A stretch of DNA of 64,000 bases from Amoebophrya sp. A120 (taxonomy: Eukaryota; Protista; Dinoflagellata). This document shows, piece by piece, positions 21,001-63,500 of the stretch. The first letter of the stretch is position 1; each line of letters begins with the position of its first letter. A model generated the notes under the pieces. The model was not told the origin of the DNA. It ran no database searches and was given only the letters and a program-made list of their open reading frames with translations. Position numbers and translations under genes: made by a program. The stretch is taken from assembly GCA_905178155.1 (NCBI GenBank), contig CAJINV010000009.1, positions 2,953,373 through 3,017,372 of the forward strand, given 5' to 3'.

Positions 21001-21187
21001 GAGGTACTATCGAACTTGGTTCATTGCCCCAGTTTATTTCAATGAAAAGGTTACCAAGAGGCTGTGTCCGCATCACAAAATTTTCCTCTTCTTCCCAACC
21101 TAGAAGCTAGAAACGAGCTTCTGCTGTTTTCATCCCGTCCACCTTTGGCTCCCCCGCACTATCATTGCAATCGCTTCTTGCACCGTC

Positions 21188-36049: not shown

Positions 36050-36644
36050 TTTCGTTTGAGTTTGTGGTCGTGTTCGTGCTGAGTGCAACTTGATGTGTAG
36101 GTGTACGAAAAAAAAGGGCCAGTTGCCGTAATCGTACTGGAGAAAAAAATCAGCTGAAGAGCAAGATGAAGATGCTTATCTGCTCAAAATGCTTTCTTGG
36201 ATGCTTCTCTATCAGTCATCTTTTGTTTTTGTCTGTTTGTCACAACCGTCCTGAAGAGACACAACATCATGCAAATCGCAGCTAGTACAGTGCCATCATT
36301 CTAATTGATCTTTTCTCGACACCTCATCGTGATCTCCCTTGTGGCTCCAGCCACAAGTAAAAAGGAGCACCTCAAGGATCTTTCTGACGTGAAAGCAAGG
36401 AACTTCTAAAGTGGCTACTTCAGACTCAAGCGTCTTTGGCTGAAACCAGGACTATTCATTGCTATTCATGGCCGTTAGAGATAGAGATAGAGTGTGATAG
36501 GACGTATAGTAAGCGCGCAACAGCCAGATCCTCCTGCGTCGGCGGTCTGAAATTGGTATATCCACCACGAACACGACACGCGCTGACAAATTGAATTGTG
36601 AACATTTCTTTTGCCAGCAACGATCGTCTGCTTGTTCCTTATCC

Positions 36645-39763: not shown

Positions 39764-39972
39764 ATTTCCTCGTGGTCGTGCGGTTGAATCAATTCTAGTT
39801 TTACGAAGGTACGTACACTAGACCTAGCTACTTAATGAAGCACAATTCCCGCATGATTTGTGCTGTTTATCGGAATCGAAAAGTCGTATACTCTCTCGCG
39901 CTTTAGTTCTTAAAAGAACACCTTACCAAGATAGTACTCAAATCCTGTACTCAGAAGTTGGGTACGCCTAGG

Positions 39973-40203
39973 TCATTCTTCCAACATCTCGTCCCGAAGC
40001 ATCTCCTTGATCTGCTCGATCTTCTGGCTCGCAAAATCCAAATCTAGATTTTTCATCGCATTCACTGAACCTGTAAGGTTCGCTGCACCCGCGAACATGC
40101 CGTCATAAAACGTAGAAGCAGAACCATTTCCTGCGTCAGAGTCCTTCTGTGTCTCCACTCCGTAAATGCTGTCTTCATGGTATTTACAAAGTAGATTCCC
40201 GAC
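39973..40203 (-). pseudogene. Duplicated 3' fragment of the gene at 43781-44986
   Basis: GNLLCKYHEDSIYGVETQKD...ASTFYDGMFAGAANL...LDLDFASQKIEQIKEMLR matches the C-terminus of ORF 43781-44986; no 5' part is present. Confidence 0.82.
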
Positions 40204-40453
40204 GCGTGGTGCCAGAAGCGAAGGTCAAGGTCGTAAACAACTCCAAAGTAAAATGTTTTTTGACTTTGACATACGGAGAGACGTGGACTAGATCTTAATC
40301 TTGTCCTTCAAACAGTGATCTTGAGGATAAACCGCTTGGTTACATAGTCCCAAGAACTGGTTTGAGCCTGACACTGCTGAGATTCGCTAGGTTCACGAAG
40401 CGCTTAGACCGTTCAGTTTAGGTTGTTGTAGGTAGCAGGGTTCTCCTGTCTAT

Positions 40454-41893
40454 TCAGACTTCATCTTCATCCTGTTGCTCAGCATCACTGTCGTTCGGTT
40501 TCGGTTTATACTCCGAAAAAATTCTTTTTGCTCGCGCAACATTTTCTTCGATGTTGGCATCTGGTGCAAAGTCTAAAAAGAACTGCTGTTGCTCCTGCTT
40601 CTTGCGGATCACCTCTTTCCATGTTGGATTGGACCACGGTGGATAGGCGTAGATCGCTGTCTTTCCGGCGTTATTTCCCCTCCTGAGCACGCGCAGCGAC
40701 TTCAAATACGCCCGCGGGAAAATGAAGACACCCCTCAGAAGATTGCCGTCCTGCTCCGCGCGGCCGCCAGCCTCGTGCTGAGCGCTGTCTTGACACTCTG
40801 CAGAAGATCGGTGCCACCTCGCGATCGCAAAGAGAAAGTCCGGGCAGCGCGCCTCGTCGCATTTGCGCATCCGCTCGCCCCCGTTGGCAACGGTACTTCG
40901 ATGCAGCCCCAGATCCAACCGCACGTAGGTTTGGCAACGGTCCGACTCGCAGCTGCGGGCTAACATTCTCATGCCATCGATCAGAAAGTGCGCGTCCAAA
41001 GACGGAAAACTTGGTCGCTCGACGTTGCAGCCGCAGCGGTCGCGCAGGAACTGCACCACCTGGAGCAAGCTCTGCTGCAACGCCCCATCGCCCGCAGTGG
41101 TGTAAAATGCTCTTCCGAACTCTTCTTCGGCCAGAAGCTTCGCGGACTGACAGTGCTCCGCCAGCTGCTTTTGCAGGTCGTCGGAACTCGTGATCTCGTA
41201 GGGTTTTGCTGTCTCGACGTCTATGCGGATTGGCGCGTCGGCTCTCACTGTCGGGCGCCGGAGAGAATCCAAAAATGCGAAAGGAAAAAAGAATACTCGA
41301 TCAGCTGCCGTGATGACGAATATCATTCCGAATCCGGATCTAATTTTGGGCGCGTGGAAAAACAGCCAGCGGTCACGAACCTCTTCAACAGAACGGAGCA
41401 CCAGCGGACACCACTTGTTCTCCTCCCCTTTCGTTTCGTTCTGATTTTGCGTGGTCTGGCGATAGACAAACTGCGCGATGCTCCGATGCGGTAAGATCTG
41501 GAACTCGAACGGCCCACCGGACGTCCGCTCCAAAAACAGCTTCTTCGCGGCGTTGCATTGTCGCGGCGAGTCTTGCAAACGCGCATTTGCTTGGCGCTGC
41601 TTCCGTCGGAGTGCCCGCTCGATCGACGGCTTAGGCCCGGGCCGCTGCCTCGCATACCCGAGCCAGTCGGGATAATCCGTCCAACCGGTGTTCCTGTAGA
41701 ACAGTCTCGGATTACTTGGCACGTCAGAAGGCCGACAGCCACTTCTGTTCCACAACAGCCACTCGCGCCAGGACTTCAATCTCGACGCCCGAACTATGTC
41801 GCGCGCGTCCTGAAAGGGAAGGAACTCTTTCGGCCTTCTACCTCTGCTGACCTTAACAGCGCTGAGCCGGTTGGGAAGCGAAAACGCTAACAT
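40454..41893 (-). CDS. Integrase-repeat plus MepB-like domain protein, paralog A2
   Basis: ORF 40454-42100, first ATG at 41893; FLPFQDAR...GWTDYPDWLG; GVFIFPRAYL...GKTAIYAYPPW; closest to 36645-38153. Confidence 0.8.
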   Translation of the reverse strand: MLAFSLPNRLSAVKVSRGRRPKEFLPFQDARDIVRASRLKSWREWLLWNRSGCRPSDVPSNPRLFYRNTGWTDYPDWLGYARQRPGPKPSIERALRRKQRQANARLQDSPRQCNAAKKLFLERTSGGPFEFQILPHRSIAQFVYRQTTQNQNETKGEENKWCPLVLRSVEEVRDRWLFFHAPKIRSGFGMIFVITAADRVFFFPFAFLDSLRRPTVRADAPIRIDVETAKPYEITSSDDLQKQLAEHCQSAKLLAEEEFGRAFYTTAGDGALQQSLLQVVQFLRDRCGCNVERPSFPSLDAHFLIDGMRMLARSCESDRCQTYVRLDLGLHRSTVANGGERMRKCDEARCPDFLFAIARWHRSSAECQDSAQHEAGGRAEQDGNLLRGVFIFPRAYLKSLRVLRRGNNAGKTAIYAYPPWSNPTWKEVIRKKQEQQQFFLDFAPDANIEENVARAKRIFSEYKPKPNDSDAEQQDEDEV

Positions 41894-42203
41894 TTTGTCG
41901 ACTGACCAATACTCAGTACGAATGGCATTGCTTTGCAGAATGAAACTTCTTCTGATACAAGTACGATGGAGTGTCCGATCTCTCGGGTAGACCAACCTCC
42001 AAAATTCATCGTTTCCCTCGCAATTCGCAAATTCTCCCAGTGAAGTAGCACCTGCCAACGTAGCCAATCTAAGCTGCTCTCCCCTCCGCCTGCTGCACAA
42101 GTGGGCATTGAAGCAACATCCTAGAACACGCTGAGTCCAACTCCAACACAGAATCTACCAAAATCTGAATCTTCAGAATCTCTATGTATACCGTGATGCT
42201 AAC

Positions 42204-43565
42204 TCATGCTGCAACAAGAAGCGATGACGGTCTTTCACCGTGACTGTTCTCGGGAAAATCCTCTGACTCTAAAATTTTGTGCACCTTTGCAACAGATGCG
42301 GCTTTATCTGCTTCTGGAGACAAATCGATACAAAATTGCTCTTGCTCCAGTTTTCGTTGGCGGGAATCGCTTCGCACTGGTGTGGTCCAAGGTGGATAGA
42401 CGTAGAGACTTTGCCTTCCGCTCTGCTTCTCGTTATCTAGTTCAGATAGTCGGCCTTTTTCTTGTAGAAACCGCCGCGGAAAAATAAATAAGGCCCGCAG
42501 ACGAGCTTTCTCAGCTGCAAACGGGACACGAGCTGCAGCACCGTCGTCGTCAAATGCTTGCTCTTCTTCGTCGCGCCACAGAGTTACTATGTAGTCAGGA
42601 CAACGCTCTGCTGCGCAACTGCTGAATCCGTCGCGCGAGCTATTAAGCTCGCGCGGCAATCCAAGTGCCACTTTGCGACCGTTTCGGAAAGCCCGCGCGG
42701 TCGGTAAGCTGTTGCACCGGAAAACCAAAGTCTTTCCGCCAGCAGTTTCGTAGTGTGCGTCGGACGTTACCGAGGTAGGACGCTTGAGAGTCAAACGGCA
42801 CACTGTGCGGAAGAAGGCGACCGCTTGCTGTACGAGGGTGTTCAGCAAAACGTCGACGTGACCGGAGAAGAGAGTCGACGGAAGCTCAGTCTCGTGAAGG
42901 AGAGTCGCGCAGCTGTAGTGCTTTTCCAAACAGTCGTGCAACGCGGCATTGTCGAAGACTTCGTACTCTCGGGCCCGCTCCATCGGAACTCGGTGCAAGG
43001 CCCAGGCATTCTTGTGTTGGAAACACGAGTCCAAAAAATCAAACGGAAAGAAGAAGAAGCGCTTCTCTGCCACCAGGATGAACAGCACTCCTCTACCGAC
43101 GCGGCACCCCGGTGGGCGAACGTACAGATGCGATCTTTCGGTGTACTGGTGCGTCATCGACCTCAAAACCAAAGGGCACCACAAATCCTGCTGCGCATCC
43201 TCCTCCGTCCGATAAGCTACATGTGCGAGTGCGCGGTGGGGAAGCAAGTCAAATTGATACGGTAAATTCGCAGCGTGTGAAAGGAAAAGTTCCTTCGCGG
43301 GCAGTATTGAATTACTGGATCTGATGCTGGCCTCGCCTGTGTCGTGGCCACGAGTGACGGCTGCTCTTTTTCGATATCCCAGCCAGTCGGGAAAGTCACA
43401 CCAGCCACTGTTTTTGTAGTAATGGTTCGGAGCACTGGGAATATTCTTTGGTCGCTTTCCAGCTGCACACCAAGCCCGCCACGTTCGCAAATTCTTGAAA
43501 TTGTAGGCATGTATGATTTCGCGCGCCCTGTCGAAAGGCAGGAACTTTGGACGAGGTGGCCTCAT
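42204..43565 (-). CDS. Integrase-repeat plus MepB-like domain protein, paralog B2
   Basis: 453-aa ORF; FLPFDRAR...GWCDFPDWLG; LFIFPRRFL...GRQSLYVYPPW; closest to 38252-39763. Confidence 0.8.
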   Translation of the reverse strand: MRPPRPKFLPFDRAREIIHAYNFKNLRTWRAWCAAGKRPKNIPSAPNHYYKNSGWCDFPDWLGYRKRAAVTRGHDTGEASIRSSNSILPAKELFLSHAANLPYQFDLLPHRALAHVAYRTEEDAQQDLWCPLVLRSMTHQYTERSHLYVRPPGCRVGRGVLFILVAEKRFFFFPFDFLDSCFQHKNAWALHRVPMERAREYEVFDNAALHDCLEKHYSCATLLHETELPSTLFSGHVDVLLNTLVQQAVAFFRTVCRLTLKRPTSVTSDAHYETAGGKTLVFRCNSLPTARAFRNGRKVALGLPRELNSSRDGFSSCAAERCPDYIVTLWRDEEEQAFDDDGAAARVPFAAEKARLRALFIFPRRFLQEKGRLSELDNEKQSGRQSLYVYPPWTTPVRSDSRQRKLEQEQFCIDLSPEADKAASVAKVHKILESEDFPENSHGERPSSLLVAA

Positions 43566-43780
43566 CTTGTAGGTGCTGCTTTGTTTTTGGCCGTTTTCCG
43601 AATTTTATGTGGTAAAATGGCACGCTTTGTCTCTACTATGGTGTCTCGCTCCCTCTCAGGTTTCTCTCTGGCATGTGCGCTCTAAACTGGAAATGACAGG
43701 AAAACGCCAAGCATTTCGGCCGTCTAAATAGGCGAACAAGACTTTTCACATGGGCGAAGAAATCTCTCCCCTGGGGGCTG

Positions 43781-45541: not shown

Positions 45542-48500
45542 CTAGGATCCCTCCGCCGGTGCCGGAGCCTCCGCCGCCGCCGCATCTCCCCCGCCACCCT
45601 CTGCGGCTGGAGCCGCCACCGCCACCGCCTCCCCCTCGGCTGGCGCTGCTGCCGCGGGTTCTTCCGCTTTTTTCTCCTCACTTTCTGCTGCAGCTGGTTC
45701 TTCCTTTTTCCCCACTTCCGCTGCGGGTTCGTCTTTCTTTTCCTCATCTGCAGGCTTGTCTTCTTTCTTACCGGCAGCTTCTTTTGCAGGAGGAGCTTTT
45801 CTATCACCTCCATCCTTCTTACTATCCGCAGTCTCACCCTCCGCCCCCTCTTCCAAAGCCTTCTTGTCCGCTTCTGCAGCCATACTTGCCGAGGAGGCTA
45901 AGACCACCACCATCAACACCAATAACCCGATCCCGACACACGCGCCGCCGATGATCGCCATGTTGCCTTTTTTCTTCTTTTCTTCCGCTGTGGTGTTTGT
46001 CGCGTTAGTGGTGTTGGTGGAGGAAGTAGAGTCTGACTCTTGATCTCCACCGCCACCAGCTGCTGCTTTGCCACCGTTCTTGCCGGAACCACCTCCTCCA
46101 CCGCCACCTTTCGGCCCTGGCGACGTGGGCACCACTATGGTATTCGAGTTCACCATGGTGAGTCCATAACTCGTTAAACTCGCAACGTTCGCCACCTCCA
46201 CGGATATATCAACTGTAAAAATGTCTGGGTCTGGAAGATTCTGACACTTGTCATGCACGTTTTGCATGAGCCATGGTGTCTGTGATGCATACCCTAGCAA
46301 TACAGATTTTTTGAGGGCTTCTTGATGCCTATTCCGCATGACAAATGCCTTCTCAGCGTAGCAAAAATTGCATTCCCTTTGGTACTCATGCAATACAAAT
46401 TCTCTTGGGAATCCAAATGCAGCATCACAACTTGCATTCTTCCAGACATTTTTGCACTTGGTAGGATATGTCCGCGAGCAAACTGGTATACGCTGCGCTT
46501 CCTATTACAGTGAAAAATGCCCCCACCCCAGAACTTGCGAGCATTTGTATTGCAAACCTTTCCTATGGAAACACACCCCGTCTTGCATATCTCAGCTATG
46601 GCCCCCTCAAAACGTAAGTTTTCAACTCGTAAGTGCGCTACCCAACTATTTTGCATAAAATTACCACTTTTTTTTTGGTTTTTCATTTTTCGCAAAAATA
46701 GCTATTTTCGATGAAAAATTGCAAAATGTCGACTCCGATGATTTCGCTAAAAGTAGCTACTTTACAAAAATAGCTTGATTCATTTTTAGCATGCTCAGCT
46801 CATCATTAGCTAGGACCCGGGCCGGCGACGGAGAGGTGAGGAGACGGACACACCAGGCTGCTCCGGGAAGCGCGTGTGGGAAATGGAGATCATGTTCTTG
46901 CAGCTGCTCCTTGAAGCGAGTATGGGAAACGGTGATCATTTTTTCGCTCTATGATTTGCAACAAAGTAGCTTTTATTCGGAGCCAGGATCTACAAGTAGT
47001 TTGACGAGCATTCACTTCTTCTACACATTCGCGCACGTGCATGCTGTGAGCCTTTGGCATGGAAAACAGGGCCGCTCGACGCCTTCGCGAATACAAAAAC
47101 AGGCTTCTTTTTGTGCTTGTGGGCGTCTATAAGTGACGCAGAGGTGAGATATTTGGGATGCCCACGCCCCCGCTACGAAGTGAAAGCGTCCAGCTCCGAA
47201 CAAAAGCTGTGGCGCAAGTCATAGACCTCCGGAGCCCGACAAAGCCAGTTTCTTGCTGATTTGGACGGCCTGAACCACAGCGGCAACAGTGGCGCCATCG
47301 TCGAAAAACCTCACAAATGCCCACCAATGGAAGACCGTTTTGCATCGTAAAAAGTGCCCCTTTGCATCTGAAGAAGCTGCTTCTACAGCTTCTGGGCGTC
47401 GGTCGGAAGCTAAAAAAAGGCAAAAAACCTGCCCGCGCATGCACAAAGTAAGGCACTTCATCTGCTGCAGCTGCGCCCGCATCTGCAAGGGATCTAGGAT
47501 CTCGAACCACCTCGCAGGACCAGCCGCAAGGGCCCCGGGTGTCGAAATTGGTCCTCCACAGGCAAGGCGTTTTTGATGCTTTTTTCCAATGATAGCCGTC
47601 CACAACTCGCCTCCTGCCGACCAATGCTGTGCCCTCGCTGTTCGACAAACATTGGGCCGGGCGCATCGCGGCTCGGCGCAACCGGCCCGGCGGCATTGTG
47701 CGCAACACCACCACCGAGCCGGGGCGGGCGCTTGCCGCCCCAATGCGCAACCCCCGGCCGCGCGCCCGGCCCGGGCGCAGCCCGCAGCGCGCCGCCAAGC
47801 CTGTGGCGCCCGCCCGCCCGTGTGCGAGGCGCTTGGCCGGTCTGCCGGGCGAGTGGCCCGAGCTGGCGGCAGGGGGCGACATGTGCCGGCACTGTCCCGC
47901 ACTCGCCGCCCGTTGAGCAGCGGCGGGGCTAGGCAGCCGGCCGAGCAAAGCAAAGGAGGCGAGAACAACCCACGCCCCGTCAATTCATGTCCGCTTCGCG
48001 CAGACAGAGCGCACAAAAAACCAACGGCAGAGCCTGGTGGCCGCCCGGCCCTTTGCAGTGGTTCTGCCTTTGCGGGGGGGGGGGATCGATTCGAGCCGGC
48101 CGGCGGCCGGCGACAAGCGTGCAAGAAGCAAGGCCGGCCGCGCGCACTAGATAGCTTGCTGAATGGCACCAAGTGGCCCCCCCAAGGGCAGGCTGGGAGC
48201 GAGTGAGGCGGGGGCCGGCTGGCCGGGCAACAGGGAAGCGCGCGGGGCCGGGGCAGGCTAGCAGGCCGGCGGGGGGCTGCGCCGGCCGGCTTCGTTCCTT
48301 CCGACACCGACAGACGGGGGGTCGGCTTGCGCGGGAACCTTCGCAGAGACAAGGGCCACCACCAAGCGGGCGCCCGCGCGCCCCGTCTGAAGGCTGGCAA
48401 AAAACCGCCGGCCGCGCGGGGGGGTCGGCCCCTGCTTGCATAGCAATTCGCGGCCCGTGCGTGGCTCCTCCATTATTTGCCAACAAGTGGGGCGCCCGCT

Positions 48501-51500
48501 AACGTCGCAAAGCATTTCCATAGGGAGCGCGCTCGCTATTTGTAAAAAAAAATTTACAACAGGCCGCGCGCTGTTTGTGCGAACACTTTTACCGGGCGCG
48601 CGCTACTTGTAAAATTTTTTTTACAAATAGACCAGCCGGGCCGGAGGGCCCATGGCAAACGGGCCGGCGCCGCGGCCTTTCCCATATACACCCATCGGGC
48701 GGGTGGGGCGGAGGGGGGGCGGCAAGCCGTTGGCCGACCTCTGGCCCGCCCGGGGTGGTGGTAAGGTGGGGGCTAACGCGCTTGGGGAAGGATTTGTAGT
48801 TCCGTGGGCCGAATGCTTGAAGCCGCGCGCTACCTGCGTGCGCCCACATGAGGCCGCCCCCCCTCCATGTGCATGCTGCCCTTCCCCGACTAGACGCGGG
48901 GCCAGAGGGCCCAGTCACGGCCCTCTGCCTGCCGTCGCCCGCGGGCCGTCTGAATGTGCCGCGCGTGTTTGTTTTTCTTTGGCCCGGTTTTTCCGCCTTT
49001 CGCGCCATTTGTTGTGGGGGCGGGCGACATGCGCCGCGCCCACACACAGGTGCCCCACAAGCTACAGGCAGCGGGCCCCGCTCCCCCAACTACAGACGGG
49101 GGCGGGCCCACACGCAGGAGACGATGCACCGGCCCAAGCCTGGCCAGGCTCGCGCCCATGCATCGGCCCCGCGCCCCGCTTCCTAGCTGGGGCGGGCCAG
49201 CAGGGTGCGCCAGCGGCTTCGGCTATGCTTGCTTACGTAGAAGCCGTCCGGGGAAAGCGGGCGAGCTAGCTAGGCGGGCCCGCCGCGTTTCCGGTTGCGG
49301 GCTAGCAAGGCTAGGCAAGCTGGCCCACAAGCAAGCTAGCAGCTGGCGCCCCGACAGGTCTCCGCGCTGCCTGGGCCAGCTGCACGCACCCGCACGCATT
49401 TGGCCCGCCAGCGCCCCTCGGTGAGTCGGTGGGTTGGGCAACTACCGGGGGCGCCCGCCTAGGTGGGTGCGGCCGTCCGTCGGGGCAGCTGCTTTACGGC
49501 CCGCCCCCCCCCGTCGCTCGCCGCCCGGCCAATTGGTTCGCGTAGCTTGCCGGCCCGGCCCGGTAGGTTCACGCGCTCGAGCTCGGCCCGGCTCCGCTGT
49601 GGGCTTTGCCGAAATGCCTGTGGCCCGGCCGCCCAGCCACGCACCAGCGAGGGGGCCTGTCCGAAGCAGTAGCTTGGCGACCAGCTGCGCGGGCTGGGGG
49701 CGGCGCTTTCTATCTTCCCAGCGATGGACGGCCCACAACAACCCGCTGCAGTCGGCCCTGTGTGTCCCATGTTCGTTGCCCGCGCCGGCCCAGCAGCCGC
49801 TTCGCGCGGCCGGTCGGTGCGTGCTTTGGGCGGACCATCATGCGCGCCCGCAGGTAGCTGGCCCAAAATATTATGGAGCGCAGCTAGCAGGCCAGGACCG
49901 GAGTGGGTTCCCCGGCAGGCTGCGCGCATCTTGGTGCTGTGCCAACTGCACGGACCGCCCGCATTTTGCTGCCTCGCAGGCATGCAGCCCGGCGCGGCCA
50001 TTTCCGTGCGGCGCCCGCCCATTGGCCGCGTGGCCCCGATGCGTTGGCTTACAGCCACCCCGCCGGCCGCGCGAAGCGGGCCGGCGAGCTACGGGAGCCA
50101 ACCCCCTTCCGCTAGTATGTTAAAAATAAAAAACCAAACCACAGGTGGCCCACGCGCAGGCCCCCCGTTCCCAAAGAGTTCGCCGGCGCCGCGCTTCGCG
50201 GGCGTGCGTCGCTCCGCTACATGCGGCAAAACCTAGCGGGGCCGCCTTCCAGCTTGCTCTACGCAGCAAGCCGGCCGGCCCGGTAGCCGCTGGCTGCGCG
50301 TAAAATGGAAAGGCGCCAGCGATGGGGGCCGGCTTCGCGCGCCCCCCCCGCGTTCGAGAGCCTGGAGCCGGGAGGCCGCCTGGCTTTTGAACCGGGCTCA
50401 GGGTTCAGGGCTCAGAGGGCGCCGGCGCGCATGCAGATTGATGCTTGGGCCGGCCGCCCGCAGCGGGGTAGTAGCGAGCGCAGCGGCCCCATTTGGCCGG
50501 CAGGCCAGAATGCTTGCCGGTGGCCCAGCTCGGTCCGTGTTTCGCGGCGCTTTTTTTTCCCAGAATGCTCTGCGCCCCACGAGGAATCCGAGGGCCAGCT
50601 TTCGGCGTGCTATTCCTGATCCAAAAGCGGCGGGCCCAGCACCCTTGACGCCCCGCGCAGCAACCTGGCTAGCGGACAAAGAAACGCCAACGATATTGGG
50701 CGGGGGGGGGCTGGCCCACCGCCTGGGCGCCGTGCCTGCCATTACCTGCCGGCCCCCTGGCTGGGGGGGGCCGTATTTTGCCCCGCGGGCTCACGCGCTT
50801 GGCGGTAGCCGCATTCGCCTGCGCGCCTGCTCAAGCTGTTGTGGTTGGCCTGCAGGCTATGTCCGTGCGCGCGCGCGCCGGCGGGGGGGCCGGGTCACTG
50901 ACTTAACTTCACCTCGGACGCGGCGGGCCCACGCCGGCAAGCCCTCGCGCCCCTTGGGCCAGCTTGGCGCGCCCGCATGCCTGCGGCAAGCCGGGCAGCT
51001 ACATGGAGTGGGCCGGCCGGCTGCTCACAATGGGCGGCCAGTTGCTTGGCTGGGCAGGGTAGGTCGGTCCGCCGCGCGGGGCGGTGGCGTGAGTGTGTTG
51101 GGCCCGAATATTGGCGGGCCGCACAACGGAGGTCCCCCGCGCTATGTATTTGGGCCAGGTCCCCGCGCCTGCTGGAGGTCGCTGGCCGCTGTTGCACGGG
51201 GCCCCCACCTGGCCGGCCGCCTCTCAGCCCCCAACCTGCCTGGGTAGGCGGCGGGGCGCGCGCGGGCCGTTCGGGCACATGGGCCGAGTACTCGCGCCCC
51301 ACATGTAGCGGGCCAGGAGGGCGGCGCCGGCCTTGGGGGCATGTGGCCACGAGGGGCGGGGGACAGCGTGCGCCGGCAATTCGGCGACAACAGCTGGCCC
51401 CTTCGCTGTATTTGATGACGGGCCCACCCCTGATCGCAGGGGCCAGCCCTATCCGTCTGGCGGCCCAGCTAAGTGGCCCAGCGCGCCGCATGCGAGCGCC

Positions 51501-54500
51501 ACGCTTTTGGCTGGCCCCGCCATCCAACGCGGCAGCCGCTCCGCCCGCTGCGAGCGAGCGCCCCCCCGGCCCGTTGTGTGCCTGCATGTAGCTGGCCAAC
51601 CGGTTGCACGTAGGTGCCGCGGCCGCGAAGTATTGAAGCGCGGCGCGTGTGTCCAGTTCGCCAATTATGAGGCCACATCCGGGCAGCCGGGTGGCGGGCC
51701 AATAAGAGGGCGCCCGGCCGCTTGGGCTAGCCAAGGAAATGCGGCCCGCCCCAGCATTAGACTACCCGCCAAAGCCCGCCGGCAGATCCCAGCACCGCCT
51801 GGAACAGCTACGCGCCCGCCCCCCCGCATGTAGTTGGTGTGGGCCTCCCTCCCGTCCCAGCAGCGTCCGTCGGCGGGCAAGAAACAAAGAGCAGATGGCA
51901 AATCTGCCAAAGCGAGACCGCCTGCTATGCGGGCCGCCTTGCCTTCATACCGGGCCCGCCCATGATGAAGCCCGCCCGGGCCCCAGCTATGTGCCCAGGG
52001 CCAGGTGCGTGCGCCCACACGTGCGCGGCCCCCCCCCCTCGCAACTGCATGCAGGCAGCTGCGCCGCCAACTAGACGGGCCCGGCTCGCCATCCCTCTTC
52101 GCAGAGTTCGCGCAGCAACCATAGGGGCCCACATGAGGCCGGTCGGAATCGGCCACGCATCGCGTTGCCCGAGCCGACTGCGTGCGACGCATGTTGCTGG
52201 GTCGGCCGTCAGCTATAGGGGGCCGGCGCCCAGCTTGACGCCCGCGATGCGCGCCCGTGTTTCTGCGATTGCGCGCGCGAGCTCAACCGCAGAAGCATCT
52301 CACGGCCGCGATTTCTAATTTTTCGCGAGGTTTATGTTTGTCGTCGACAAACACAAATCTCGGGAAAGTTGGAGGCCCTCAACTCGTAAGTGCGCCCACC
52401 ACTAGAGAAAATTTGTGTGGAGCGCACTTACGAGTTGAGAAAAGTGCAGCACACCATCGGGGGTGCGATTGAAATGCTGCATTTTTCTCAACTCGTAAGT
52501 GCGCTCCACACAAATTGTCGAGAGCGCAGCGAGAAATTTCGCAACTTTTTCCAGAGCAAATCCAGAAAAGGTTGCGAAATTTCTCAGAAATAGAAAAAAA
52601 GGGCGGAAATGGGCGCCGGCGGGCAGGCTCCGCCCGGTTGTGTGTGGTTGCGTGCATGTGGCTCGTCCATGTAGCTCACCCTCCAGACCACACCAGCCAA
52701 GGCTAGGAAGGCGCCGACCTCCTAACTATAGCTGAAGGACGGACCAACAACATGCGGCGCACCGTGGTGGGATCAACGGTTGGGAGGCGCGGCCGGTTCA
52801 AACAGGCTCCATGTGTGCCCCCATAGTAAGCTGCTGCGCGAACTCCGTAAAGAGGGGCGTTGGGGCCCGGTGCCTCTAGTTCGGGGGGCGGCTTGTTGCG
52901 TGCAGCTGCCGGGCCACAACAAGCGAACGGCGCGCGGCCACACCTGCCTGGCTTCGAGCCGAACAAATGGGGGCCGGGCGGTTTTCGTCGTACTTGGGCG
53001 CGCCAGGCCGGGCGGTGCGCGGCCCGTGTGGCAGGCTGGCGCGCTTGGGCAAATTTCTTCACCGAATCGCCTCGCGTTCTTTCTGGCGCTGGTGGCAAAA
53101 TGCACGGGATGGCGCGTAGTTGCTCCAGGCGATTTGGGAAATTGCCGACGGGCCGGGACGGGTAGGTTGGTAGCTACTGCGTGGCTGGGCGGGTTGCGTT
53201 TGGCGGGCCCCCGCGGCCGGGCGCATTGTTATTAGCAGGCCCGCCGCCCGGCTTAACGGATGCATGTGGCCACTATAGTTGGCCAACCGAAGGAACATAC
53301 GCAACGAGCCGCGGCCGGCGGGCATTTCGTACCCGCGGCGCGCCACCTACGTGAGGCCGGCTGGGAAAAGACAACCAGGCGCGCAACGCGCGGGCCGGTC
53401 GCAAGGGGCGGGTGGGGCGGCTGCCAAGCCGGGGGGGCCATCCAAAACAACGCGCGGCGCACGCGGCTGGGCCATGCAACTGGCCCGCCAGGTGCATGCA
53501 GCTGGCCCCTACGATTAGTTGCGGGCCCGTCCAATCCAAACTGTGGACGAGGGGCCAGGCGCTGTCGCCGACATGCAGGCGCATGTTGCTTAGCGTAGCC
53601 CATCACGGTCATGCGCCTATTGAAGCAGGGGCCCTGCTACCTTGGTGCCGCGAGTTAGTCAGGACTGGGCCCTTGTGGCGGGGTGGCCCGCGAGCGCGCC
53701 GCCGCTTGCCCAGGAGAGGGGCCGACTGGGGTGGGGGGCCCATGCTCCGGCAACGCGGCTAGCGACCCCCACCGGGCCGGCGCGGGGGCCTGCGGCAAAC
53801 AGCGCGACAGGCTTTCGCAGCGCGGTCCAGCTATATTAGGACCCCACTCACACCACCGCCCCACGCTATGGGCCTGCCCTGCCCAGCCAACCAGCCGCCC
53901 GCCGTGAGTAGCTGGCCGCCCTGTTGCAGGCGTGCGGGAGCGCCAACCAAGCTGGCCCAAGCGCTGCGCCGCAAGGGCTTGCCGGCTTGGGCAGGCTGCC
54001 TGCGCCGGGGGTAAATTCAGTGAGTCGGGCCCCCCGCCGGCGCGCGCGCGCACGGAGCGGACGCAGCTTGCACGCAGCCCGGCTGCTGCTGCAGCAGCTA
54101 GCTCGCCAGCAGGCGCGCTGGCGCATCCATGCGGCTACTTCAAAGCGCGGGAGCCCGCTGGCCAAATTGCGCCAGCAACAAACATGCGGGCTATGGCCAT
54201 GGGGACTGCAAGCCACGGGATGCTTGCGCCAGAGTGGGCCGGCCCGCCCCGTGCCGCTGGTGTTCGTTGGTGCGCTAGGTTGTTCCATCGATGGAGTCGC
54301 ATTGGCGGCGTGCCCACCGCCTTTGGATAGCTACTCAGGGGGGAGGAACGCCGGCGCAGGGCCAAAAAAATCGCCGCGAAACACGGACCGAGCTGGGCCA
54401 CCGGCAAGCATTCTCGCCTGCCGGCCAAATGGGGCCGCTGCGCTAGCTGCTAACCCGCTGCAGGCGGCCGGCCCAAGCAACAAGCAAGCTGCATGCGCGC

Positions 54501-57500
54501 CGGCGCCCACTTGGGCAAGTTGGGAACCCTGAACCCGGCCCAAAAGCCAGGCGGCCTCTTGGCTCCAGGCTCTGTCTCGAACGCGGGGGGGGGGCGCGCG
54601 AAGCTGGCCCCCATCGCTGGCGCCGTACGTTCCATTTTACGCGCAGCCAGCGGCTACCGGGCCGGCCGGCTTGCTGCGTAGAGCAAGCTGGATGGCGGCC
54701 CCGCTCGGTTTTGCCGCATGCAGCTGAGCGACGCACGCGAAGCGCGGCGCCGGCGGACTCTTTGGGAGCGGAGGGCCTGCGCGTGGGCCGCCTGTGGTTT
54801 GGCCTTTTCTTTTTTATCATACTAGCGGAAGGGGGGTGGCTCCTGTAGCTCGCCGGCCCGCTTCGCGCGGCCGGCGGGGTGGCTATGTGCCAACGCATCG
54901 GGGCCACGCGGCCAATGGGCGGGCGCCGCACGGAAATGGCCGCGCCGGGCTGCATGCCTGCGAGGCAGCAAAATGCTGGCGGTCCGTGCAGTTGGCACAG
55001 CACCAAGATGCGCGCAGCTTGCTTGCAGGGGAACTCACTCCGGGCCTGGCCTGCTAGCTGCGCTCCGTAATATTTTGGGCCAGCTACCTGCGGGCGCGCA
55101 TGATGGTCCGTCCAAAGCATTCACAGACCGGCCGCGCGAAATGGCTGCCGGGCCGGCGCGGGCAACATGGGACAGGGCCGGCTGCAGCGGGTTGTTGTGG
55201 GCCGTCCATCGCCGGGAAGATAGAAAGCGCCGCCCCCTAGCCCGCGCAGCTGGTCGCCAAACTACTTCGGGCAGGCCCCCTCGCTGGTGGTTGGGCGGCC
55301 GGGCCACAGGCATTTCGGCAAAGCCCATAGCGGAGCCGGGCCGGGCTCGAGCGCGTGAACCTACCGGGCCGGGCCGGCAAGCTACGCGAACCAATTGGCC
55401 GGGCGGCGACAGGGGGGCCGGGCCGCAAAGCAGCGGACCCGACGGCCGCACCAACCTAGGCGGGCGCCCCCGGTAGCTGCCCGGCCCGCCGATTCACCGA
55501 GGGGCGCTGGCGGACCAACTGTGTGCGCGCGCGTGCAGCTGGCCCAGGCAACGCGGAGAACTGTCGGGGCGCCAGCTGCTAGCTTGCTTGTGGGCCAGCT
55601 TGCCTAGCCTTGCTAGCCCGCAACCGGAAACGCGGCGGGCCCGCCTAGCCCGCTCGCCCGCTTTCCCCGGGCGGCTTCTATGTAAGCAAGCATAGCCGGT
55701 GGCGCACCTTGCTGGCCCGCCCCAGCTAGGAAGCCAGCGGGGCGCGCGGCCGATGCATGGGCGCGAGCCTGGCCAGGCTTGGGCCGGTGCGTCGTCTACT
55801 GTGTGTGGGCCCGCCCCCGTTTGTAGTTGGGGGAGCGGGGCCCGCAGTGTGTAGCTTGTGGGGCAGCTGTGTGTGGGCGCGGCGCATGTCGCCCGCCCCC
55901 GCAACAAATGGCGCGAAAGGCGGAAAAGCCGGGCCAAAAACAAACACGCGCGGCACTCACATGTAGACGGCCCGCGGGCGACGGCAGGCAGAGGGCCGTA
56001 GTTGGGCCCTCTGGCCCCGCGTCTAGTCGGGGAAGGGCAGCACATAGAGGGGAGGCGGCTTCATGTGGGCGCACGCAGGTAGCAGCTTCAAGCACGTGGG
56101 CCACGCAACTACAAATCCCCAAGCGCGTTGGCCCCCACCTTACCACCACCCCGGACCAGAGGTCGGCCACCGGCTTGCCGCCCCCCCTCCGCCCCACCCG
56201 CCCGATGGGTGTATATGGGAAAGGCCGCGGCGCCGGCCCGTTTCTTTGCCATTGGCCCTCCGGCCCGGCTGGTCTATTTGTAAAAAAAATTTTACAAGTA
56301 GCGCGCGCCCGGTAAAAGTGTTCGCACAAACAGCGCGCGGCCTGTTGTAAAATTTTTTTTACAAATAGCGAGCGCGCTCCCTATGGAAGTGTTTTGCCAC
56401 GTTAGCGGGCGCCCCACTTGTTGGGAAATAATGTATGGAGGAGCCACGCACGGGCCGCGAATTGCTTTGCAAGAAAGTAGGGCCCCGCCCCCCCGCGCGG
56501 CCGGCGTTTGCCAGCCTTCAGACGGGGCGGGCGCCGGCTTGGTGGTGGCCCTTGTCTCTGCGAAGGTTCCCGCGCAAGCCGACCCCCCCTCGTCTGTCGG
56601 TGTCGGAAGGAACGAAGCCGGCCGGCGCAGTCCTCCGCCGGCCTGCTAGCCTGCCCCGGCCCCGCGCGCTTCCTTGCCGCCCAGCCAACCTGCCAGCCGG
56701 CCCCCGCCTCGCCTGCTCCCAGCCTGCCCCGGCCTACAACTTGGGGGGTCCACTTGGTGCCATTCAGCAAACTATCCACCGCGCGCGGCCGGCCCTGCTT
56801 CTTGCTTGTCGCCGGCCGCCGGCCGGCTCGAATCGATCCCACCCCGCAAAGGCAGAACCATTGCCAAGGGCCGGGCGGCCACCAACCTCTGCCGTTTTTT
56901 GCATGCGCGCTCTGTCTGCGCGAAGCGGACACGGATGGACGGGGCGTGGGGTGTTCTCGCCTCCTTTGCTTTGCTTGAGTGATCGGCTAGCTACCTAGCC
57001 CCGCCGGCCGCTGCTCAACGGGCGGCGGGCGCGGGACAATGCCGGCACATGTCGCCCCCCGCCGCCAGCTCGGGCCACTCGCCCGGCAGACCGGCCAAGC
57101 GCCTTGCACACGGGCGGGCGGGCGCCAAAGGCTTGGCGGTGTGCTGCGGGCTGCGCCCGAGCCGGGCGCGCGGCCGGGGGTTGCGCATTGGGGCGGCAAG
57201 CGCCCGCCCCGGCTCGGTGGTGGCGTTGCGCACAATGCCGGCGGGCCGATTGCGCCGAGCCGCGAGGCGCCCGGCCCAATGTTTGCCGCACGTCGAGGGC
57301 ACAACATTGGTCGAAAGGAGGCGAGCTGTGGACGGCTATCAATGGAAAAAAGCATCGCAAATGCCTTGCCTGTGGCGGACCAATTTGGACACCCAGGGCA
57401 CTTGCGCCTGGTCCCGAGGGGTGGCTCTAGATCCTAGATCCCTTGAAGATGCAGACGCAGCTGCAGCGGATGAAGCTCCTTACTTTGTGCATGCGCAGGC

Positions 57501-60500
57501 AGCTTTTTTGCCTTTTTTTAGCTTCCGACCGATGCCAAGAAGCTGGAAAAGCAGCTTCTTCAGATGCAGAGTGGCACTTTTTACGATGCAAAATGGTCTT
57601 CCATTGATGAGCATTTGTGACGTTTTTCGACAGTGGCGCCATTGTTGCCGCTGTGATTCAGGCCGTCCAAACCAACAAGAGGGCGTCTTTGTCGGGCTCC
57701 GGAAGTCTATGACTTGCAATACGGCTTTTGTTCGGGGCTGGATATTTTCACTTCGTAGCGGGGGGGCGGGCATCCCAAATATCTCGCTTTTGCATCACCT
57801 ATAGACACCCAGAAGCCTCTTTCTGTATTCGTGAAGGCGTCGAGCGACCCTATTCCACATGCCAAAGGCACACAGCAGGCACGCACGCGCGCGACTATGT
57901 AGAAGAAGCGAACGCTCAGACTACTTGTAAATCCGGGCGCCGAATGCAAGCTACTTCATTGCAAATCATAGAGCGAGAAAATGATCTCCGTTTCCCATAC
58001 TCGCTTCAAGGAGCAGCTGCAAGAACATGATCTCCATTTCCCACACGCGCTTCCCGGAGCAGCCTGGTGTGTCCGTCTCCTCACCTCTCCGTCGCCGGCC
58101 CGGGTCCTAGCTAATGATGAGCTGAGCATGCTAAAAATGAATCAAGCTATTTTTGTAAAGTAGCTACTTTTAGTGAAATCATCGGAGTCGACGTTTTGCA
58201 ATTTTTCATCGAAAGTAGCTACTTTTGCGAAAAATGAAAAACCAAAAAAAAAGTGGTAATTTTATGCAAAAAAGTTGGGTAGCGCACTTACGAGTTGAAA
58301 ACTTACGTTTTGAGGGGGCCATATCAGCACCACAAATTTTCCAAACTGAATAGCTCAAATTTGTGTTGCAAAGGAGCCCAACAGCAGCCGGATCTCTTAT
58401 GCAAAAGACACCTTGCGCACCTAGATTCTGCACCAGAAAGGCTCGCAATCCTTTCATGCATCAAGACAAAAAGCTTTTATTTGGAAACTTTGCATGAGAA
58501 ACTTTTGTAACTTCCGGGGTGGGGGCATTTTTCATTGCAGTACTACCGTCGTCCAGTTTTGTGACCGCTTGCGACGCGGAGCTCGTCGACATCCAAGCGG
58601 TGTTTAAGGCTGCGGATTGGGCGGACGTGGCCTGGATGCCAAACTCGACGTAGACTCTCGCGTTAGTAGTCGATCCAGATGACTCGGTAGACGATTTGGC
58701 TGTCTTGCGGAGAAGCTGCACGGCAGAGAGAATCGGTCGCTGGTCTTTCGGTCCTCGACGTAGTTCAGCATTGATACTGTTTTGCTTTTGGACGACGTGA
58801 TTTCTACTATTACTTTCTTCCTCATACCGCAGCACCCTGGTGCTTGTGTTTCTTCTCTTCTTTCCCGCCGCTGCGGGTGAACCACGAACATCTTCCCCTT
58901 TTTCCAGAAACGAAGCCGATGACCCTCCGTCCGCGGATATCTCCGAAATAAAAGCCGCTGCGGCGGAAGAACTAGTAGGGCTCCCAACGCTCCACGCTAA
59001 ATTCAATGACACAACTTGATCCTCGGTTAAATCACTAACCCCGCCCTCGTCCTGGAACCACTTCACAATCCCAGTCCGCAGCGCGTTCTTGAACCTATGG
59101 ATTGCAAAAATGTCTGGGTCTGGATCTGGAAGATTGTCATGCTAAATCCGAATCATGCAAAAATCTGTGTTGCATGAGTGCCAAAAGCTGTCCACTTTCG
59201 ACCAAGGAAGTTGGGAGGGAGTTTCTCATGCAGGATAGGCATGAAAGAGACCTCACAGACTCTGTCATGCTAGGTCCTGCATTCCAGACCTCAAGGGTCC
59301 TGGAAAACCTGCATGACAAGTTTACACTCTTCCAGACCCAGACACTTTTGCATTTGATAGAACCCTGCGTCAGACAAAACCGCTTGCAAATCGCCCTGCG
59401 CCGAGCCGGAGCCGCTATTCGCCAAATCCAACCCAAGGTCGACTTTCCGCAACTGGACGTCTTGCCTCGCTTGAGTGTGCTTCTTGATCACTAAGTTCTC
59501 AATACCCGCGGCCGCCACTTCATCCTGCTCGACGTGAACCAAAGCGGAATACTCCCCCTCGTCGTCGTCCACATGCTTCCAAATGTCATCAACCGCCTGC
59601 TTCTGCTCATCCGAGTTCGTTTGGATTTCGAAATGAACATCCAGCGTTTCGTCCTTTTTTGTCGCGTTGTAATCGGTGAGGACGAAAATGAGAACCTGAT
59701 TTTCCTCCAAATGCAGACTATCAAATGCAAAAATGTCTGGGGCTGGGAGATTCTGAGACTTGTCACGCACGTTTTGCATGAGCCATGATGTCTGTGATGC
59801 ATGCCGTAGCATCACAGATTTTTCGGGGGGTTCTTAATGCCTATTTCGCATGACAAATGCCCTATCCGCGTAGCAAAAATTGCATTCCCTTTGCTACTCA
59901 TGCAATACAAATTTTTTTGGAATCCAAATGCAGCATCACAAGTTGCATTCTTCCACCAGACCCAGACATTTTTGCATTTGATACAGACTGTCGTCCGTGA
60001 GTTTCATGTTGGTGTAGTCAACCACGCCCTTTTTGATCGCTTCTTCAAACGTAATGTTGTGCGCCGCAACAGTGACGTTCTCGTCGCTTGGTGCTGTTTC
60101 GAGGAACTGATGATGTTGCAATTTGCCAAGGCGCCTCGATGTTGTTTTCGCCAATAAGCTGCTGAGCGAAGATGAGTCACTTTCCGTCAGTTCCAACTCT
60201 ACCTCGAAGCCCCCGGAAACCTCGGATTTGGTGGGCGACGGACTGGGGGACGGGCTTGGCGATGGGGATGGGGATGCTGGTGTTGGAGATACTGGTGCTG
60301 GTGTTGGCGCCGCTGTTGTAGTCGTCGAGGTTGTACTTGTTGTGGTTGTAGTGGGCAAAACCGGATAGAGCTTCAAGTTCAAACTAGTAATATTCGCCAG
60401 ATCCACTTCGTACTGTTCCAAATCGACCAACGCCCCGTACTCGCTACTACTCAAATCCGCTACCATGTTCCAGATTTCTTCCACTTTCTCCGCCTGCCGC

Positions 60501-63500
60501 ACGGTCAACGACTGTTCATTCATCAGACTGCTGTCGATCTCAAAGGTAACGGTAATTCTCGGCTCAGAAATAGTGCTGGCGTCCGACTCGTTGACGTGTA
60601 AATTCCTGACTTGTTGCTCGGTCAGTTTCAAATCAACTTCTACTATCTTGTCGTTCGTGAAGCTAAAAACGCCTTTCTTCATGGCGTCCTGCAAAGCCGG
60701 GTCGTAGAGAACGTGCTCCGCGATGTGGCCAGGACCGGCGGATACTTTTTGAAAAAACGACGACGATGATGATGTACTAACAACAACCTCCGCCATCAAC
60801 ATCTCGAACTGTTTCATCTGCAACAAATGCACGCAATAGGTTTTGTCACTACTCACTTCGTACGAAGCGTCCACACACGATTCGCACTTCTGCGCGTCTT
60901 GCGCCGGACAATCTACCCCCTTCGCGCCGACCCCGAACCCGCACTGGCAGACGTTTTCGTTGCACCGCCCCTGCGGATCGCTGGTACTCTCGTGATACCC
61001 CGCGTCACAGTTGCCGCAAAGCTCCGTGTTGTGCACCGTGCAATTCTTTCCCGCCGCGGCGATTCCGTGGTTGCAGGTACAGATGTTGACTTCACACACA
61101 TCAACATTCAAGTGGTACCCGGCGAAACACGAGCTGCAGATCTCCGCGTGGTCCCCCGTACACGCGGCGCCGGTCGCGGGCACGCCGTTGGTGCATTGAC
61201 AGATAAGGACGGTGGAAGTCGTGGATGTCGTCGATGTCGTTGTCGAGGTGGTTGTCGTCGCCGTACACACTTTGCTCCCCGCGACCATCTCGTACTCGTC
61301 GGCGCACACGGTGCAGATTTCCATCTGGTCGCCGGTGCAAGAAGTCCCGGTCGCCGGCTGGCCGTGGGCGCACGTACACAGGTTGTTCAAACACTCGCCG
61401 GCAGTTGTGCCCTGTCCTGTTCCTAAATGGAATCCCGCATTATGCATTGCAAATATGTCTGGGTCTGGAAGAATGCAACTTGTGATGCTGCATTTGGATT
61501 CCAAAAAAATCTGTATTGCAGGAAGGGCAAAAGAGGTGGTCTCCTTGCTACGCGGAGGGGGCATTTCTCATGCAGTACGGGCATCAGAAAGCCGTCGCAA
61601 TATCTGTGATGCTAGGGCATGCATCACAGACATCGCCGGTGATGCAAAATGCGCATTACAAACTTCCAGACCCAGACATATTTGTAACCCATACGCATCA
61701 CAGCTTTCGCACTTCTCCGGCGTCGGGCTCGCGTCGCACTCCGTGCCGGTTATCAGGTGCAAAAACGTCTGGGTCTGAATGAATGCAGAACTTTGTCATG
61801 CATCTTTTGGATCGCGCAAATGGTCTCTAATGCACGCAAAAGCATTACAGATTTTGCACAGGCCTCCATTTGATGCCTAATCCGCATGAGAAATTCCCTA
61901 TTTGCGTAGCAACAAATGGCCAGCTCTGGGCGTTCACGCAATACAAGTTTTTGCCTATTCCAGAATCGGCATCACAAGTTGCAACCTTCCAGACCCAGAC
62001 AACATATTTGCATTTGATACCGGTCTTCGGCGTGCCGTTGGCGCAGGCGCAGGAAGCGGAGCTGTCGAGAGCGGGCGGTGTTGTGGTGGTTGTCCCTGCT
62101 GGTGCTGCCGTCGTTGCATAAGCCACGCAATGCGAACTCGCGCTGTCTAGGTAGTGGCCACTGTCACAGTGCACGCACTTCTCCTCCAGGTTGTTCGTAC
62201 ACTCTGTGCCGGCCGCCGGAGTCCCGTAGGCGCAGGTGCAAATTGGTGATGATGCTCCCACTCCGCCAGTCGTGTTACCATTCCCGCTGGTTGAACTACT
62301 AGCAACACACGTCATACCACCCCCAACATCCAGCTCGAACCCGGCGTTGCACTGCGCACACTTTTCCGTGTCAGTATCCCCGCAGTCCGTTCCCGTTGCG
62401 GGTGTGCCGTTGGTGCAAGTGCAGTGATCGGTCTTCAACTCGGTTGAAGATGATTCTCTACTGGAATAAATGGAAGACGACCCCGCATGACCGTCGAGAT
62501 GACTTTCGTTCTCTTCCAAAAGAGACATCGAAGAGACCGCGGCCTGTTGTGCAGCGGGGGTTGTAGTACTCGAGCTGGTGCTAGTCGTCGTTGAGGTTGT
62601 CAACACCGCCTTGTGCTTCTCGTCCTGGGAACAGTCATGCACCACCTCCGCCAAAAGCTCGTGCCGGAAGATTTTTTCCATGCAGGAGTCGTAAAAGGCG
62701 TTCGCGTTTGCGCAACAGGGATCTACTCCCGACGTAGAACTAGTAGTTGTACACTGCCCACCCGTTCCTTTCCCGCTGTTGTACCTCTGCTGGCAGGTCT
62801 CGCATGGAGAGAAAAAAGTTTGCCAAAGTCACTAACTTGCAGGCTTTGCATTACAAATTTTTTCAGCGTCGCAACTTCTCCTTGTATTGCAGAAACACTA
62901 GGGAAGTCCATTATGAAGTTTGGCTGTGATGCATTTTTACGCATGACAGAAAAATTTGTATTGCAAAAATGCGCATGAGTGATCGTGACGCACTTTTTTT
63001 GTTTGATATCTCGACCGGCATGCTCACTCCGTTCCAGTTCTTGGTTTCGTAATCTGCTTCCGGCAAATCGTAACACGTTTCCACGAACTCTTTACACGCG
63101 GCGAGACAGTGGGTCGCGTTGGCGTTTACCGTGGTAGTGTCCCCGCTGAATAAATCCGTCACCGGGTCGATCTGCGACATGTGCCAGCATTTTTCCCAGA
63201 TTTTCTCCTCCCTCCGGAACTCGCAATGCTCGCAGTCGGAGCACTTGAAAAACCCGTGTTCCGGTGTATCCGTCTTGCTCTTGTGGCAGTTCCCCCCCAT
63301 AGCAGTGGTGTCGTCGGCCAGGGTCTTCGGTTTGCACCGGTAGCCCTGGTCGAAACGGGCGGGGTCCATGCGCCCGTCCTCCAGGTAGTCGCAGGGGCTG
63401 GTGGTGGCGGAGGCGGGGGGAGGTGTAGTAGCAGACTGTGCATGATGCGACTGTTCAACAACGGCGGAAGCAGTGGGGACCGTTGCGGTAGCGTTTAGCA

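What the first reader, a model, noticed from the sequence alone, without database searches (positions are those of the whole stretch)
46597..58323. 11.7-kb giant palindromic element with the same TAT...ATA ends and 5-bp TSD as the small introners
Seen: exact ends tatggccccc.../...gggggccata, a perfect TSD tcagc, and inverted symmetry across essentially the whole length. The geometric midpoint (52460) falls in the loop of the central hairpin. It is about 40 times larger than the introners, far more GC-rich than the host, and inserted in an introner. Inference: a large foldback member of the same mobile system, so the introner mobiliser can move more than 10 kb. Its family is the best lead to the autonomous parent or to a viral or plasmid-like source. 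I cannot see a transposase in this copy.
Basis: partly seen in the sequence, partly recalled or inferred. Interest (0 to 1): 0.9.

Follow-up and report, generated by a model that had tools for sequence, protein, structure and literature searches.

The report
Giant palindromic transposon recording introner excisions
An 11.7-kb non-coding DNA palindrome sits inside a small mobile intron of a single-celled eukaryote and is likely spliced out of the gene's RNA with it; its two arms differ by dozens of 4-letter scars that are likely left by cut-and-paste excision, which would reveal how this genome's mobile introns move.

Summary
46597-58323 is a real, non-coding, GC-rich palindrome with TAT...ATA ends and a perfect 5-bp target duplication, inserted in a 308-bp introner. 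Its arms are 79-98% alike and occur as separate single-copy contigs, so it is not a chimera. A probable RNA contig skips the whole 12,045-nt nest exactly, restoring a 1,302-codon frame. Contigs show a small family, including a deleted sister copy. No protein, viral or plasmid link was found, so it is a poor lead to the transposase. The new point is in the arms: 24 of 40 indels are 4 nt; 21 have the form W-XYZ-n-XYZ-M, and in all 15 imperfect cases n is the complement of W or M. That is the Ac/hAT-type flank-hairpin excision footprint expected for a 5-bp duplication. The same motif is 2.2-2.3-fold enriched through the core. Inference: 5-bp-TSD elements, most likely the TAT introners, move by hairpin-type cut-and-paste; a +4 scar would break exons, trapping exonic copies as introns. 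Giant foldbacks are known; this scar record was not found in the papers searched.

The parts
46597..58323 (.). Giant non-coding palindromic (foldback-type) TIR element, TAT...ATA, 11,727 bp
46592..46596 (+). Left copy of 5-bp target duplication TCAGC
58324..58328 (+). Right copy of 5-bp target duplication TCAGC
46597..46658 (+). Likely functional end (~60 bp) with the motif CAACTCGTAAGTGCGC at 46623 and a half-repeat at 46606-46618; mirror at 58262-58323
   Evidence: motif positions; two other contigs keep only the last 59-62 bp joined to other interiors; function inferred
46961..47900 (.). Stratum II: 89% arm identity, 813 nt gap-free, almost no 4-nt scars; an open frame (47127-47984, minus) without codon signal or homologs
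47901..52300 (.). Left GC-rich core (69-71% GC), dense in W-XYZ-n-XYZ-M scars; 23 4-nt indels per 153 substitutions in 47901-50560
52600..57000 (.). Right GC-rich core, same scar enrichment
48537..48630 (.). AT-rich internal hairpin in each arm (mirror about 56278-56365), also kept with a shorter loop in a diverged relative
   Evidence: joints
52380..52519 (.). Centre: three copies of the terminal motif (52380+, 52422-, 52489+); hairpin 52407-52451/52475-52519
46503..58542 (.). Host introner (308 bp when empty), TAT...GTA, TSD CTTCC/CTACC; with one TSD copy it forms the 12,045-nt intron 46498-58542
45542..62828 (-). Host gene interrupted by six TAT elements; 1,302-codon open frame after removing each element plus one TSD; Cys-rich repeats and a C-terminal hydrophobic stretch, no Pfam hit; true start not determined

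Best explanation
The element is a non-coding 11.7-kb palindrome with TAT...ATA ends and a 5-bp target duplication inside a small introner; it was likely pasted there in one piece by a transposase encoded elsewhere, is likely tolerated because the nest is spliced out whole, and its arms carry many 4-nt scars that are likely flank-hairpin excision footprints of 5-bp-TSD elements such as the introners. Mechanism. (1) Shown: ends, TSD, nesting, layered arm identity, small family. (2) Shown if run X3 is RNA: element plus host introner plus one TSD copy leave the transcript as a 12,045-nt non-canonical intron; inferred: fold-back of the arms keeps the host introner's ends together. (3) Shown: arm indels are mostly W-XYZ-n-XYZ-M with n equal to W, M or their complements. 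Inferred: an element inserted (duplicating WXYZM) and was excised by nicking one base into each flank, hairpin closure, opening and end joining, as for Ac/Ds and Hermes, leaving +4 nt. (4) Inferred: the excising elements are the TAT/5-bp system (about 60%) and the enzyme is a hAT-like or related flank-hairpin DDE transposase (about 40% for hAT5-like). (5) Inferred: in non-coding DNA insertions come and go and leave scars, about 100 recognisable per 4.4-kb core; in exons a +4 scar would be a frameshift, so resident copies persist as introns. (6) Speculative: the palindrome arose as an inverted dimer from a hairpin-capped break, and the strata are arm-to-arm conversions.
For: Both arms exist as separate single-copy contigs (depth 44.6 and 43.8, flank 43.3). 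X3 contig of 5,047 nt skips 46202-46463 and runs from 46499 into 58545, with 0 differences over 1,091 exon bases; removal restores a 1,302-codon frame. 24 of 40 arm indels are 4 nt; 21 of 24 have the duplication form; 15 of 15 imperfect ones have the complement base, 7 of 15 fit a 3-bp-TSD geometry. Nulls: random insertion 4.5% complement class, random deletion 13.4%, perfect duplication plus mutation 7.0% complement against 7.9% forbidden. In the cores, where W=M: complement 28 vs 11.6 and 32 vs 8.8 expected, transition 2 vs 5.5 and 8 vs 5.7. A paralogous contig has one more such insertion at 51232. One AT-rich gene-free kb (20001-21000) shows the same excess. No resident small introner in 11.7 kb against 27-28 in the other 52 kb. 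Ac/Ds footprints are one base deleted plus one exchanged T>A or G>C (PMC2921059, passages), centred on the complement of the base next to the element (PMC5873905, passages).
Against: No transposase was found, and no site was seen with an introner in one copy and a scar in another, so the link of scars to TAT elements rests on the 5-bp length alone. Scars are far rarer between small introner copies: 4 of 35 gap rows per 417 substitutions, 0 of 45 gaps, against 23 per 153; their gaps are more often 3 nt. Stratum II has 1 per 102. The forbidden class is also somewhat raised in the right core (z 2.1 and 2.9) and in 19000-21200 (z 2.6), and 4-mer tandems with inner mismatches are 1.7-1.8-fold enriched. 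Exon bias of introners is weak here: 23 of 28 against 72% of random sites. X3 is only guessed to be RNA; X1/X2 may be the window's own sample and no contig spans the palindrome. A published Amoebophrya family with TA/TA ends and 5-bp TSD was classed as Ginger-like (PMC12130899, supplement row).
Confidence: 0.65

Rival explanations
1. The element is a real foldback transposon, but the 4-nt insertions come from a transposon-independent repair process, such as topoisomerase II breaks filled in and rejoined, or an unknown templated repair active in GC-rich palindromic DNA.
For: Trapped Top2 gives mostly 4-bp duplications by end joining (10.1101/2020.05.03.075358, passages). The scar rate is about 15 times higher in the core than between small introners, which suits a process tied to this DNA. 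6 of 21 duplications are perfect.
Against: Fill-in of a 4-nt overhang gives perfect copies; 15 of 21 are imperfect at the edge and all carry the complement base, which duplication plus mutation does not give.
Confidence: 0.15
2. The TAT/5-bp elements, the giant included, are moved by a Ginger/IS3EU-like integrase-type enzyme, and the hairpin scars come from a different, unseen 5-bp-TSD family.
For: A published Amoebophrya family of 808 bp with TA/TA ends and 5-bp TSD has integrase-like homology (PMC12130899, passages and supplement); IS3EU/GingerRoot have TA..TA ends (PMC10045372, passages).
Against: IS3EU/GingerRoot make 6-bp TSDs; the authors note that family lacks Ginger termini and TSDs; nearly all TIR elements with a 5-bp TSD in the window are of the TAT type (one TGC...GCA exception at 778-979).
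Confidence: 0.15
3. The element is an integrated remnant of a virus, linear plasmid or other foreign replicon (hairpin-ended genome replicated into an inverted dimer).
For: High GC, central symmetry, terminal motif repeated at the centre.
Against: No coding signal or homolog; no match in phage, plasmid, viral or metagenome collections; no Rfam match near a gathering score.
Confidence: 0.04
4. Assembly or amplification artefact (inverted chimera).
For: No short-read contig spans the whole palindrome.
Against: Arms differ by 2-21% and exist as separate single-copy contigs; the flanks carry matching TSDs and are consecutive exons of one spliced frame.
Confidence: 0.01

Closest known systems
Foldback-type non-autonomous TIR elements (Drosophila Galileo copy 112, Tetris)
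   Same: Two very long inverted arms, TSD, no transposase. Galileo copy 112 is 9,021 bp with TIRs of 4,246 and 4,680 bp (PMC4168063, passages); Tetris TIRs reach 1,735 bp (PMC4079207, passages).
   Different: No tandem sub-repeats in the arms, 5-bp rather than 7-10-bp TSD, TAT ends, GC-rich scar-laden arms, and removal by splicing inside an introner.
Amoebophrya introner elements (Farhat et al. 2021; Gozashti et al. 2025)
   Same: TAT start, inverted ends, 3-5-nt direct repeats, non-canonical splice borders (PMC7789003, sections 10-11 and passages).
   Different: About 40 times longer; sequence unrelated to small introners; spliced only as cargo of a host introner. That study capped introns at 10,000 nt in mapping and 1,000 nt in analysis, and argued against general transposase-mediated movement.
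hAT superfamily excision chemistry (Ac/Ds, Hermes); hAT5 subgroup
   Same: Footprint of TSD kept twice, minus one base, with one base changed to its complement; hAT5 makes 5-bp TSDs (PMC12730594, passages).
   Different: No hAT transposase seen; MULE and Transib also form flank hairpins (PMC5499845, passages), so the superfamily is not fixed.
IS3EU/GingerRoot and the Ginger-like Amoebophrya family 38
   Same: TA...TA ends; family 38 also 5-bp TSD.
   Different: IS3EU/GingerRoot TSD is 6 bp; no integrase-like frame here.

Membership tests
Foldback-type element | Very long inverted arms making up most of the element | tested here: met
   about 5.6 kb per arm
Foldback-type element | TSD and no transposase | tested here: met
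Foldback-type element | Modular arms with internal tandem repeats | tested here: not met
   only one 1.9-copy 46-nt repeat; no dispersed direct repeats by self-blastn except the inner hairpin
Amoebophrya-type introner | Inverted ends starting TAT and a 3-5-nt direct repeat | tested here: met
Amoebophrya-type introner | TAT, seven variable bases, then three or more A | tested here: inconclusive
   nine bases precede the A run
Amoebophrya-type introner | Is itself an intron in an exon | tested here: not met
   it lies inside another introner and leaves with it; separate splicing not seen
hAT5 | 5-bp TSD | tested here: met
hAT5 | hAT transposase in an autonomous partner | not testable with these tools
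   no whole genome held; no transposase family among 47 window ORFs outside the element
hAT5 | Excision through flank hairpins | tested here: inconclusive
   scars of that form are abundant but are not tied to a named element
IS3EU/GingerRoot | TA...TA ends | tested here: met
IS3EU/GingerRoot | 6-bp TSD | tested here: not met
   exact duplication is 5 bp here and in the small elements
Virus/plasmid/Polinton-like insert | Replication, capsid or integrase genes | tested here: not met

The most novel reading that the evidence does not exclude
The TAT introners are cut-and-paste transposons that excise through flank hairpins and leave +4-nt scars. In exons the scar is a frameshift, so copies there cannot leave and pile up as introns (an excision ratchet); in non-coding DNA they come and go, and the giant's 9-kb GC-rich core has been grown largely from such scars while riding as a 12-kb fold-back intron.
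Probability: 0.4. Interest if true: 0.87.

Novelty: new variant of a known kind. Interest (0 to 1): 0.7.

Why it matters
How these introners move is open: one study argued against transposase-mediated movement and another lists most families as unknown. A sequence signature that fixes TSD length and excision chemistry narrows the enzyme search to flank-hairpin DDE transposases and can be tested at once by comparing strains. It offers a new reason why transposons end up as introns, and a mutational force (+4 scars) that would shape non-coding DNA.

Tried and rejected
No whole genome was held, so copies could not be collected. Exact-motif scans of metagenome contigs: 0 and 0; viral contigs: 4 chance 17-23-nt hits. 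blastn of the left half against plasmids and phages: no match. Rfam: 6 weak matches, all far below gathering scores. Pfam: 0 of 15 element ORFs (15 of the 48 listed); phmmer of the 284-aa frame: 0; codon-position test negative. The protein atlas gave no answer, so the alternative frame at 47222-47653 has only the Pfam test. No RNA holder was listed on record; X8 raw RNA reads covered only an introner and X4 laid nothing: no evidence either way. Three look-ups of earlier findings returned nothing. Rejected: 3-bp-TSD footprint geometry (7 of 15), fixed terminal bases as n, duplication plus point mutation. PMC5684705 was not held. Figures in the supplement of PMC7789003 and files 13-14 of PMC12130899 were not seen and may bear on TSD lengths and families.
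Full report
1. Observation. The element spans 46597-58323 (11,727 bp), starts TATGGCCCCC, ends GGGGGCCATA and is flanked by TCAGC twice; GC is 65.5% against 50.7%. The ends are perfectly complementary for 51 nt and the midpoint 52460 lies in the loop of a 45-nt hairpin. Arm identity is layered: 98.1, 89.0, 94.1 and 79.3% from outside in. It interrupts a 308-bp TAT...GTA element with TSD CTTCC/CTACC. The window holds 22 small TAY...RTA elements with perfect 5-bp TSDs, against 0 in each of 20 simulations. Their anatomy matches the TAT introners described for Amoebophrya (PMC7789003, sections 10-11), so the host is inferred to be such a dinoflagellate. The giant shares no detectable sequence with the small elements.

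2. It is real, has relatives and is likely spliced. In run X1 the flank has depth 43.3, and the two arms appear as separate contigs of depth 44.6 and 43.8, each with 0 differences from its own arm. X1 and X2 may be the window's own sample, and no contig spans the whole. The sub-terminal region shows only these two arms, so no second full-length close copy is evident. But 52487-53741 is at about twice single depth (75; 34 against 17-18 in X2) while the next 690 bp are single (45.6), and a contig joins 53741 to 58262: a sister copy lacking 4,520 nt of the right arm and keeping the last 62 bp. Another contig joins a different interior to the last 59 bp, 2 contigs continue past the end into other flanking letters, and diverged contigs share islands including the inner AT-rich hairpin. 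Left inner pieces are also duplicated. In X3, guessed to be RNA, one 5,047-nt contig matches 1,091 exon bases exactly, skips the neighbouring introner, and runs from 46499 straight into 58545. Removing six TAT elements with one TSD copy each yields a 1,302-codon frame across the site. The intron is 12,045 nt with non-canonical borders (TA...AG or GT...AA by register). The published pipeline capped introns at 10,000 nt.

3. It encodes nothing detectable. 0 of 15 ORFs tested hit Pfam, the frame open in both arms has no codon signal and 0 relatives among 1.84 billion proteins. No match in plasmids, phages or metagenomes, and only chance 17-23-nt viral hits. None of 47 other window ORFs is a transposase. 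The foreign-replicon idea is unsupported.

4. The arms record 4-nt scars. In the outer 3.96 kb, 24 of 40 indels are 4 nt (21-24 across four gap settings). 21 of 24 read W-XYZ-n-XYZ-M; 6 are perfect duplications, and in 15 of 15 others n is the complement of W or M; 3 have no such form. Null models put 4.5% (random insertion), 13.4% (random deletion) or 7.0% (duplication plus mutation, with 7.9% forbidden) in the complement class. Throughout both cores the motif is 2.2-2.3-fold enriched (z 8.5-11.6). Where W equals M, complements are enriched (28 vs 11.6; 32 vs 8.8) and transitions are not (2 vs 5.5; 8 vs 5.7). The excess amounts to roughly 100 recognisable scars in the 4.4-kb left core (my estimate). 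A paralogous contig adds one more at 51232. Host 11300-46500 as a whole is not enriched, but one gene-free kilobase (20001-21000) is (14 vs 4.8). Against: the forbidden class is mildly raised in the right core and in 19000-21200, inner-mismatch tandems are enriched 1.7-1.8-fold, and the right core also shows 3- and 5-nt classes; ageing of scars would explain part of this.

5. Reading. A 5-bp duplication WXYZM, excised by a nick one base into each flank, hairpin closure, opening and end joining, gives WXYZ-n-XYZM with n in {W, M, their complements}: +4 nt. Ac/Ds footprints are described as one base deleted plus one exchanged T>A or G>C (PMC2921059, passages) and as centred on the complement of the base beside the element (PMC5873905, passages). 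hAT, MULE and Transib use flank hairpins (PMC5499845, passages); hAT5 makes 5-bp TSDs (PMC12730594, passages). The 5-bp-TSD elements in view are the TAT ones, so they are the likely source; this link is inferred from length only. No resident small introner lies in the 11.7 kb, where the density elsewhere predicts about six. A +4 scar in an exon is a frameshift, so exonic copies would be kept and non-coding ones would turn over; the window's own exon bias is too weak to test this (23 of 28 against 72%). Unexplained: scars are about 15 times rarer per substitution between small introner copies, whose gaps are mostly 1 or 3 nt, several of the form XY-n-XY, and rare in stratum II.

6. Origin of the palindrome (speculative). 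The terminal motif recurs three times at the centre; the two that form the hairpin are 51 nt apart, close to the 52 expected for two abutting ends, though those 51 nt do not resemble the termini. An inverted dimer from a hairpin-capped break, later cut out by its two like ends, would fit; hairpin-derived inverted repeats beside Ds were proposed before (PMC1978519, passages). The strata suggest arm-to-arm conversion. That the sister shares both inner arms shows the palindrome predates at least one duplication.

7. Comparison and novelty. A 9-kb two-TIR Galileo copy is known (PMC4168063, passages), so a giant foldback is not new in kind. It fails the modular-repeat feature of classic Foldback, the own-intron feature of introners and the 6-bp TSD of IS3EU/GingerRoot (PMC10045372, passages). 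Gozashti et al. class one TA/TA, 5-bp family as Ginger-like and most others as unknown (main-text passages and all 58 supplement rows for that strain). I found no report of excision footprints for introners: 'footprint' and 'excision' occur 0 times in PMC12130899, PMC7789003, PMC9860276 and the Roy preprint, and library searches listed no such paper; the library lacks most subscription papers, and Huff et al. 2016 was not held. Top2 duplications (10.1101/2020.05.03.075358, passages) are the main rival for the scars.

8. Verdict. Observation confirmed; interpretation partly supported. New variant of a known kind, interest 0.70, carried by the scar signature and the 12-kb spliced nest rather than by size.

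Noticed in passing
window 7900-10700: GC-rich array of at least 35 degenerate ~46-nt units (GGGCAAAAGTGATGGCCAAGAGCTC core), between weak AT-rich inverted ends at about 7669-7721 and 11196-11252; possibly another large repeat-filled element or a centromere-like array.
   Followed up: partly
small introners, e.g. 4865, 4907, 5059, 11449, 11551, 34539: 3-nt gaps between introner copies often read XY-n-XY with n the complement of a flanking base (7 of 11 gap rows, about 10 events), hinting at a second, 4-bp-TSD element with the same excision chemistry.
   Followed up: partly
window 18400-21200: AT-rich gene-free stretch with excess 3- and 4-nt scar-like motifs and no introner.
   Followed up: partly
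window 778-979: 202-bp TIR element with TGC...GCA ends and a 5-bp TSD in an open frame, the one non-TAT example found.
   Followed up: no
window 38255-43604 (minus strand): Three neighbouring ORFs each with a partial MepB-like Pfam match, and an AlkB-type 2OG-Fe(II) oxygenase match at 34646-36175.
   Followed up: no
window 34130-34690: Two related introners in opposite orientation about 45 bp apart, mimicking a 500-bp palindrome.
   Followed up: yes
window 6722-6957: Small introner starting TATGG with TCTCAAC sub-terminal repeats, the closest end resemblance to the giant, but below blastn detection.
   Followed up: no
window 46961-47900 and mirror: 813-nt gap-free, scar-poor stratum with 11% substitutions; constraint or protection unexplained.
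   Followed up: partly
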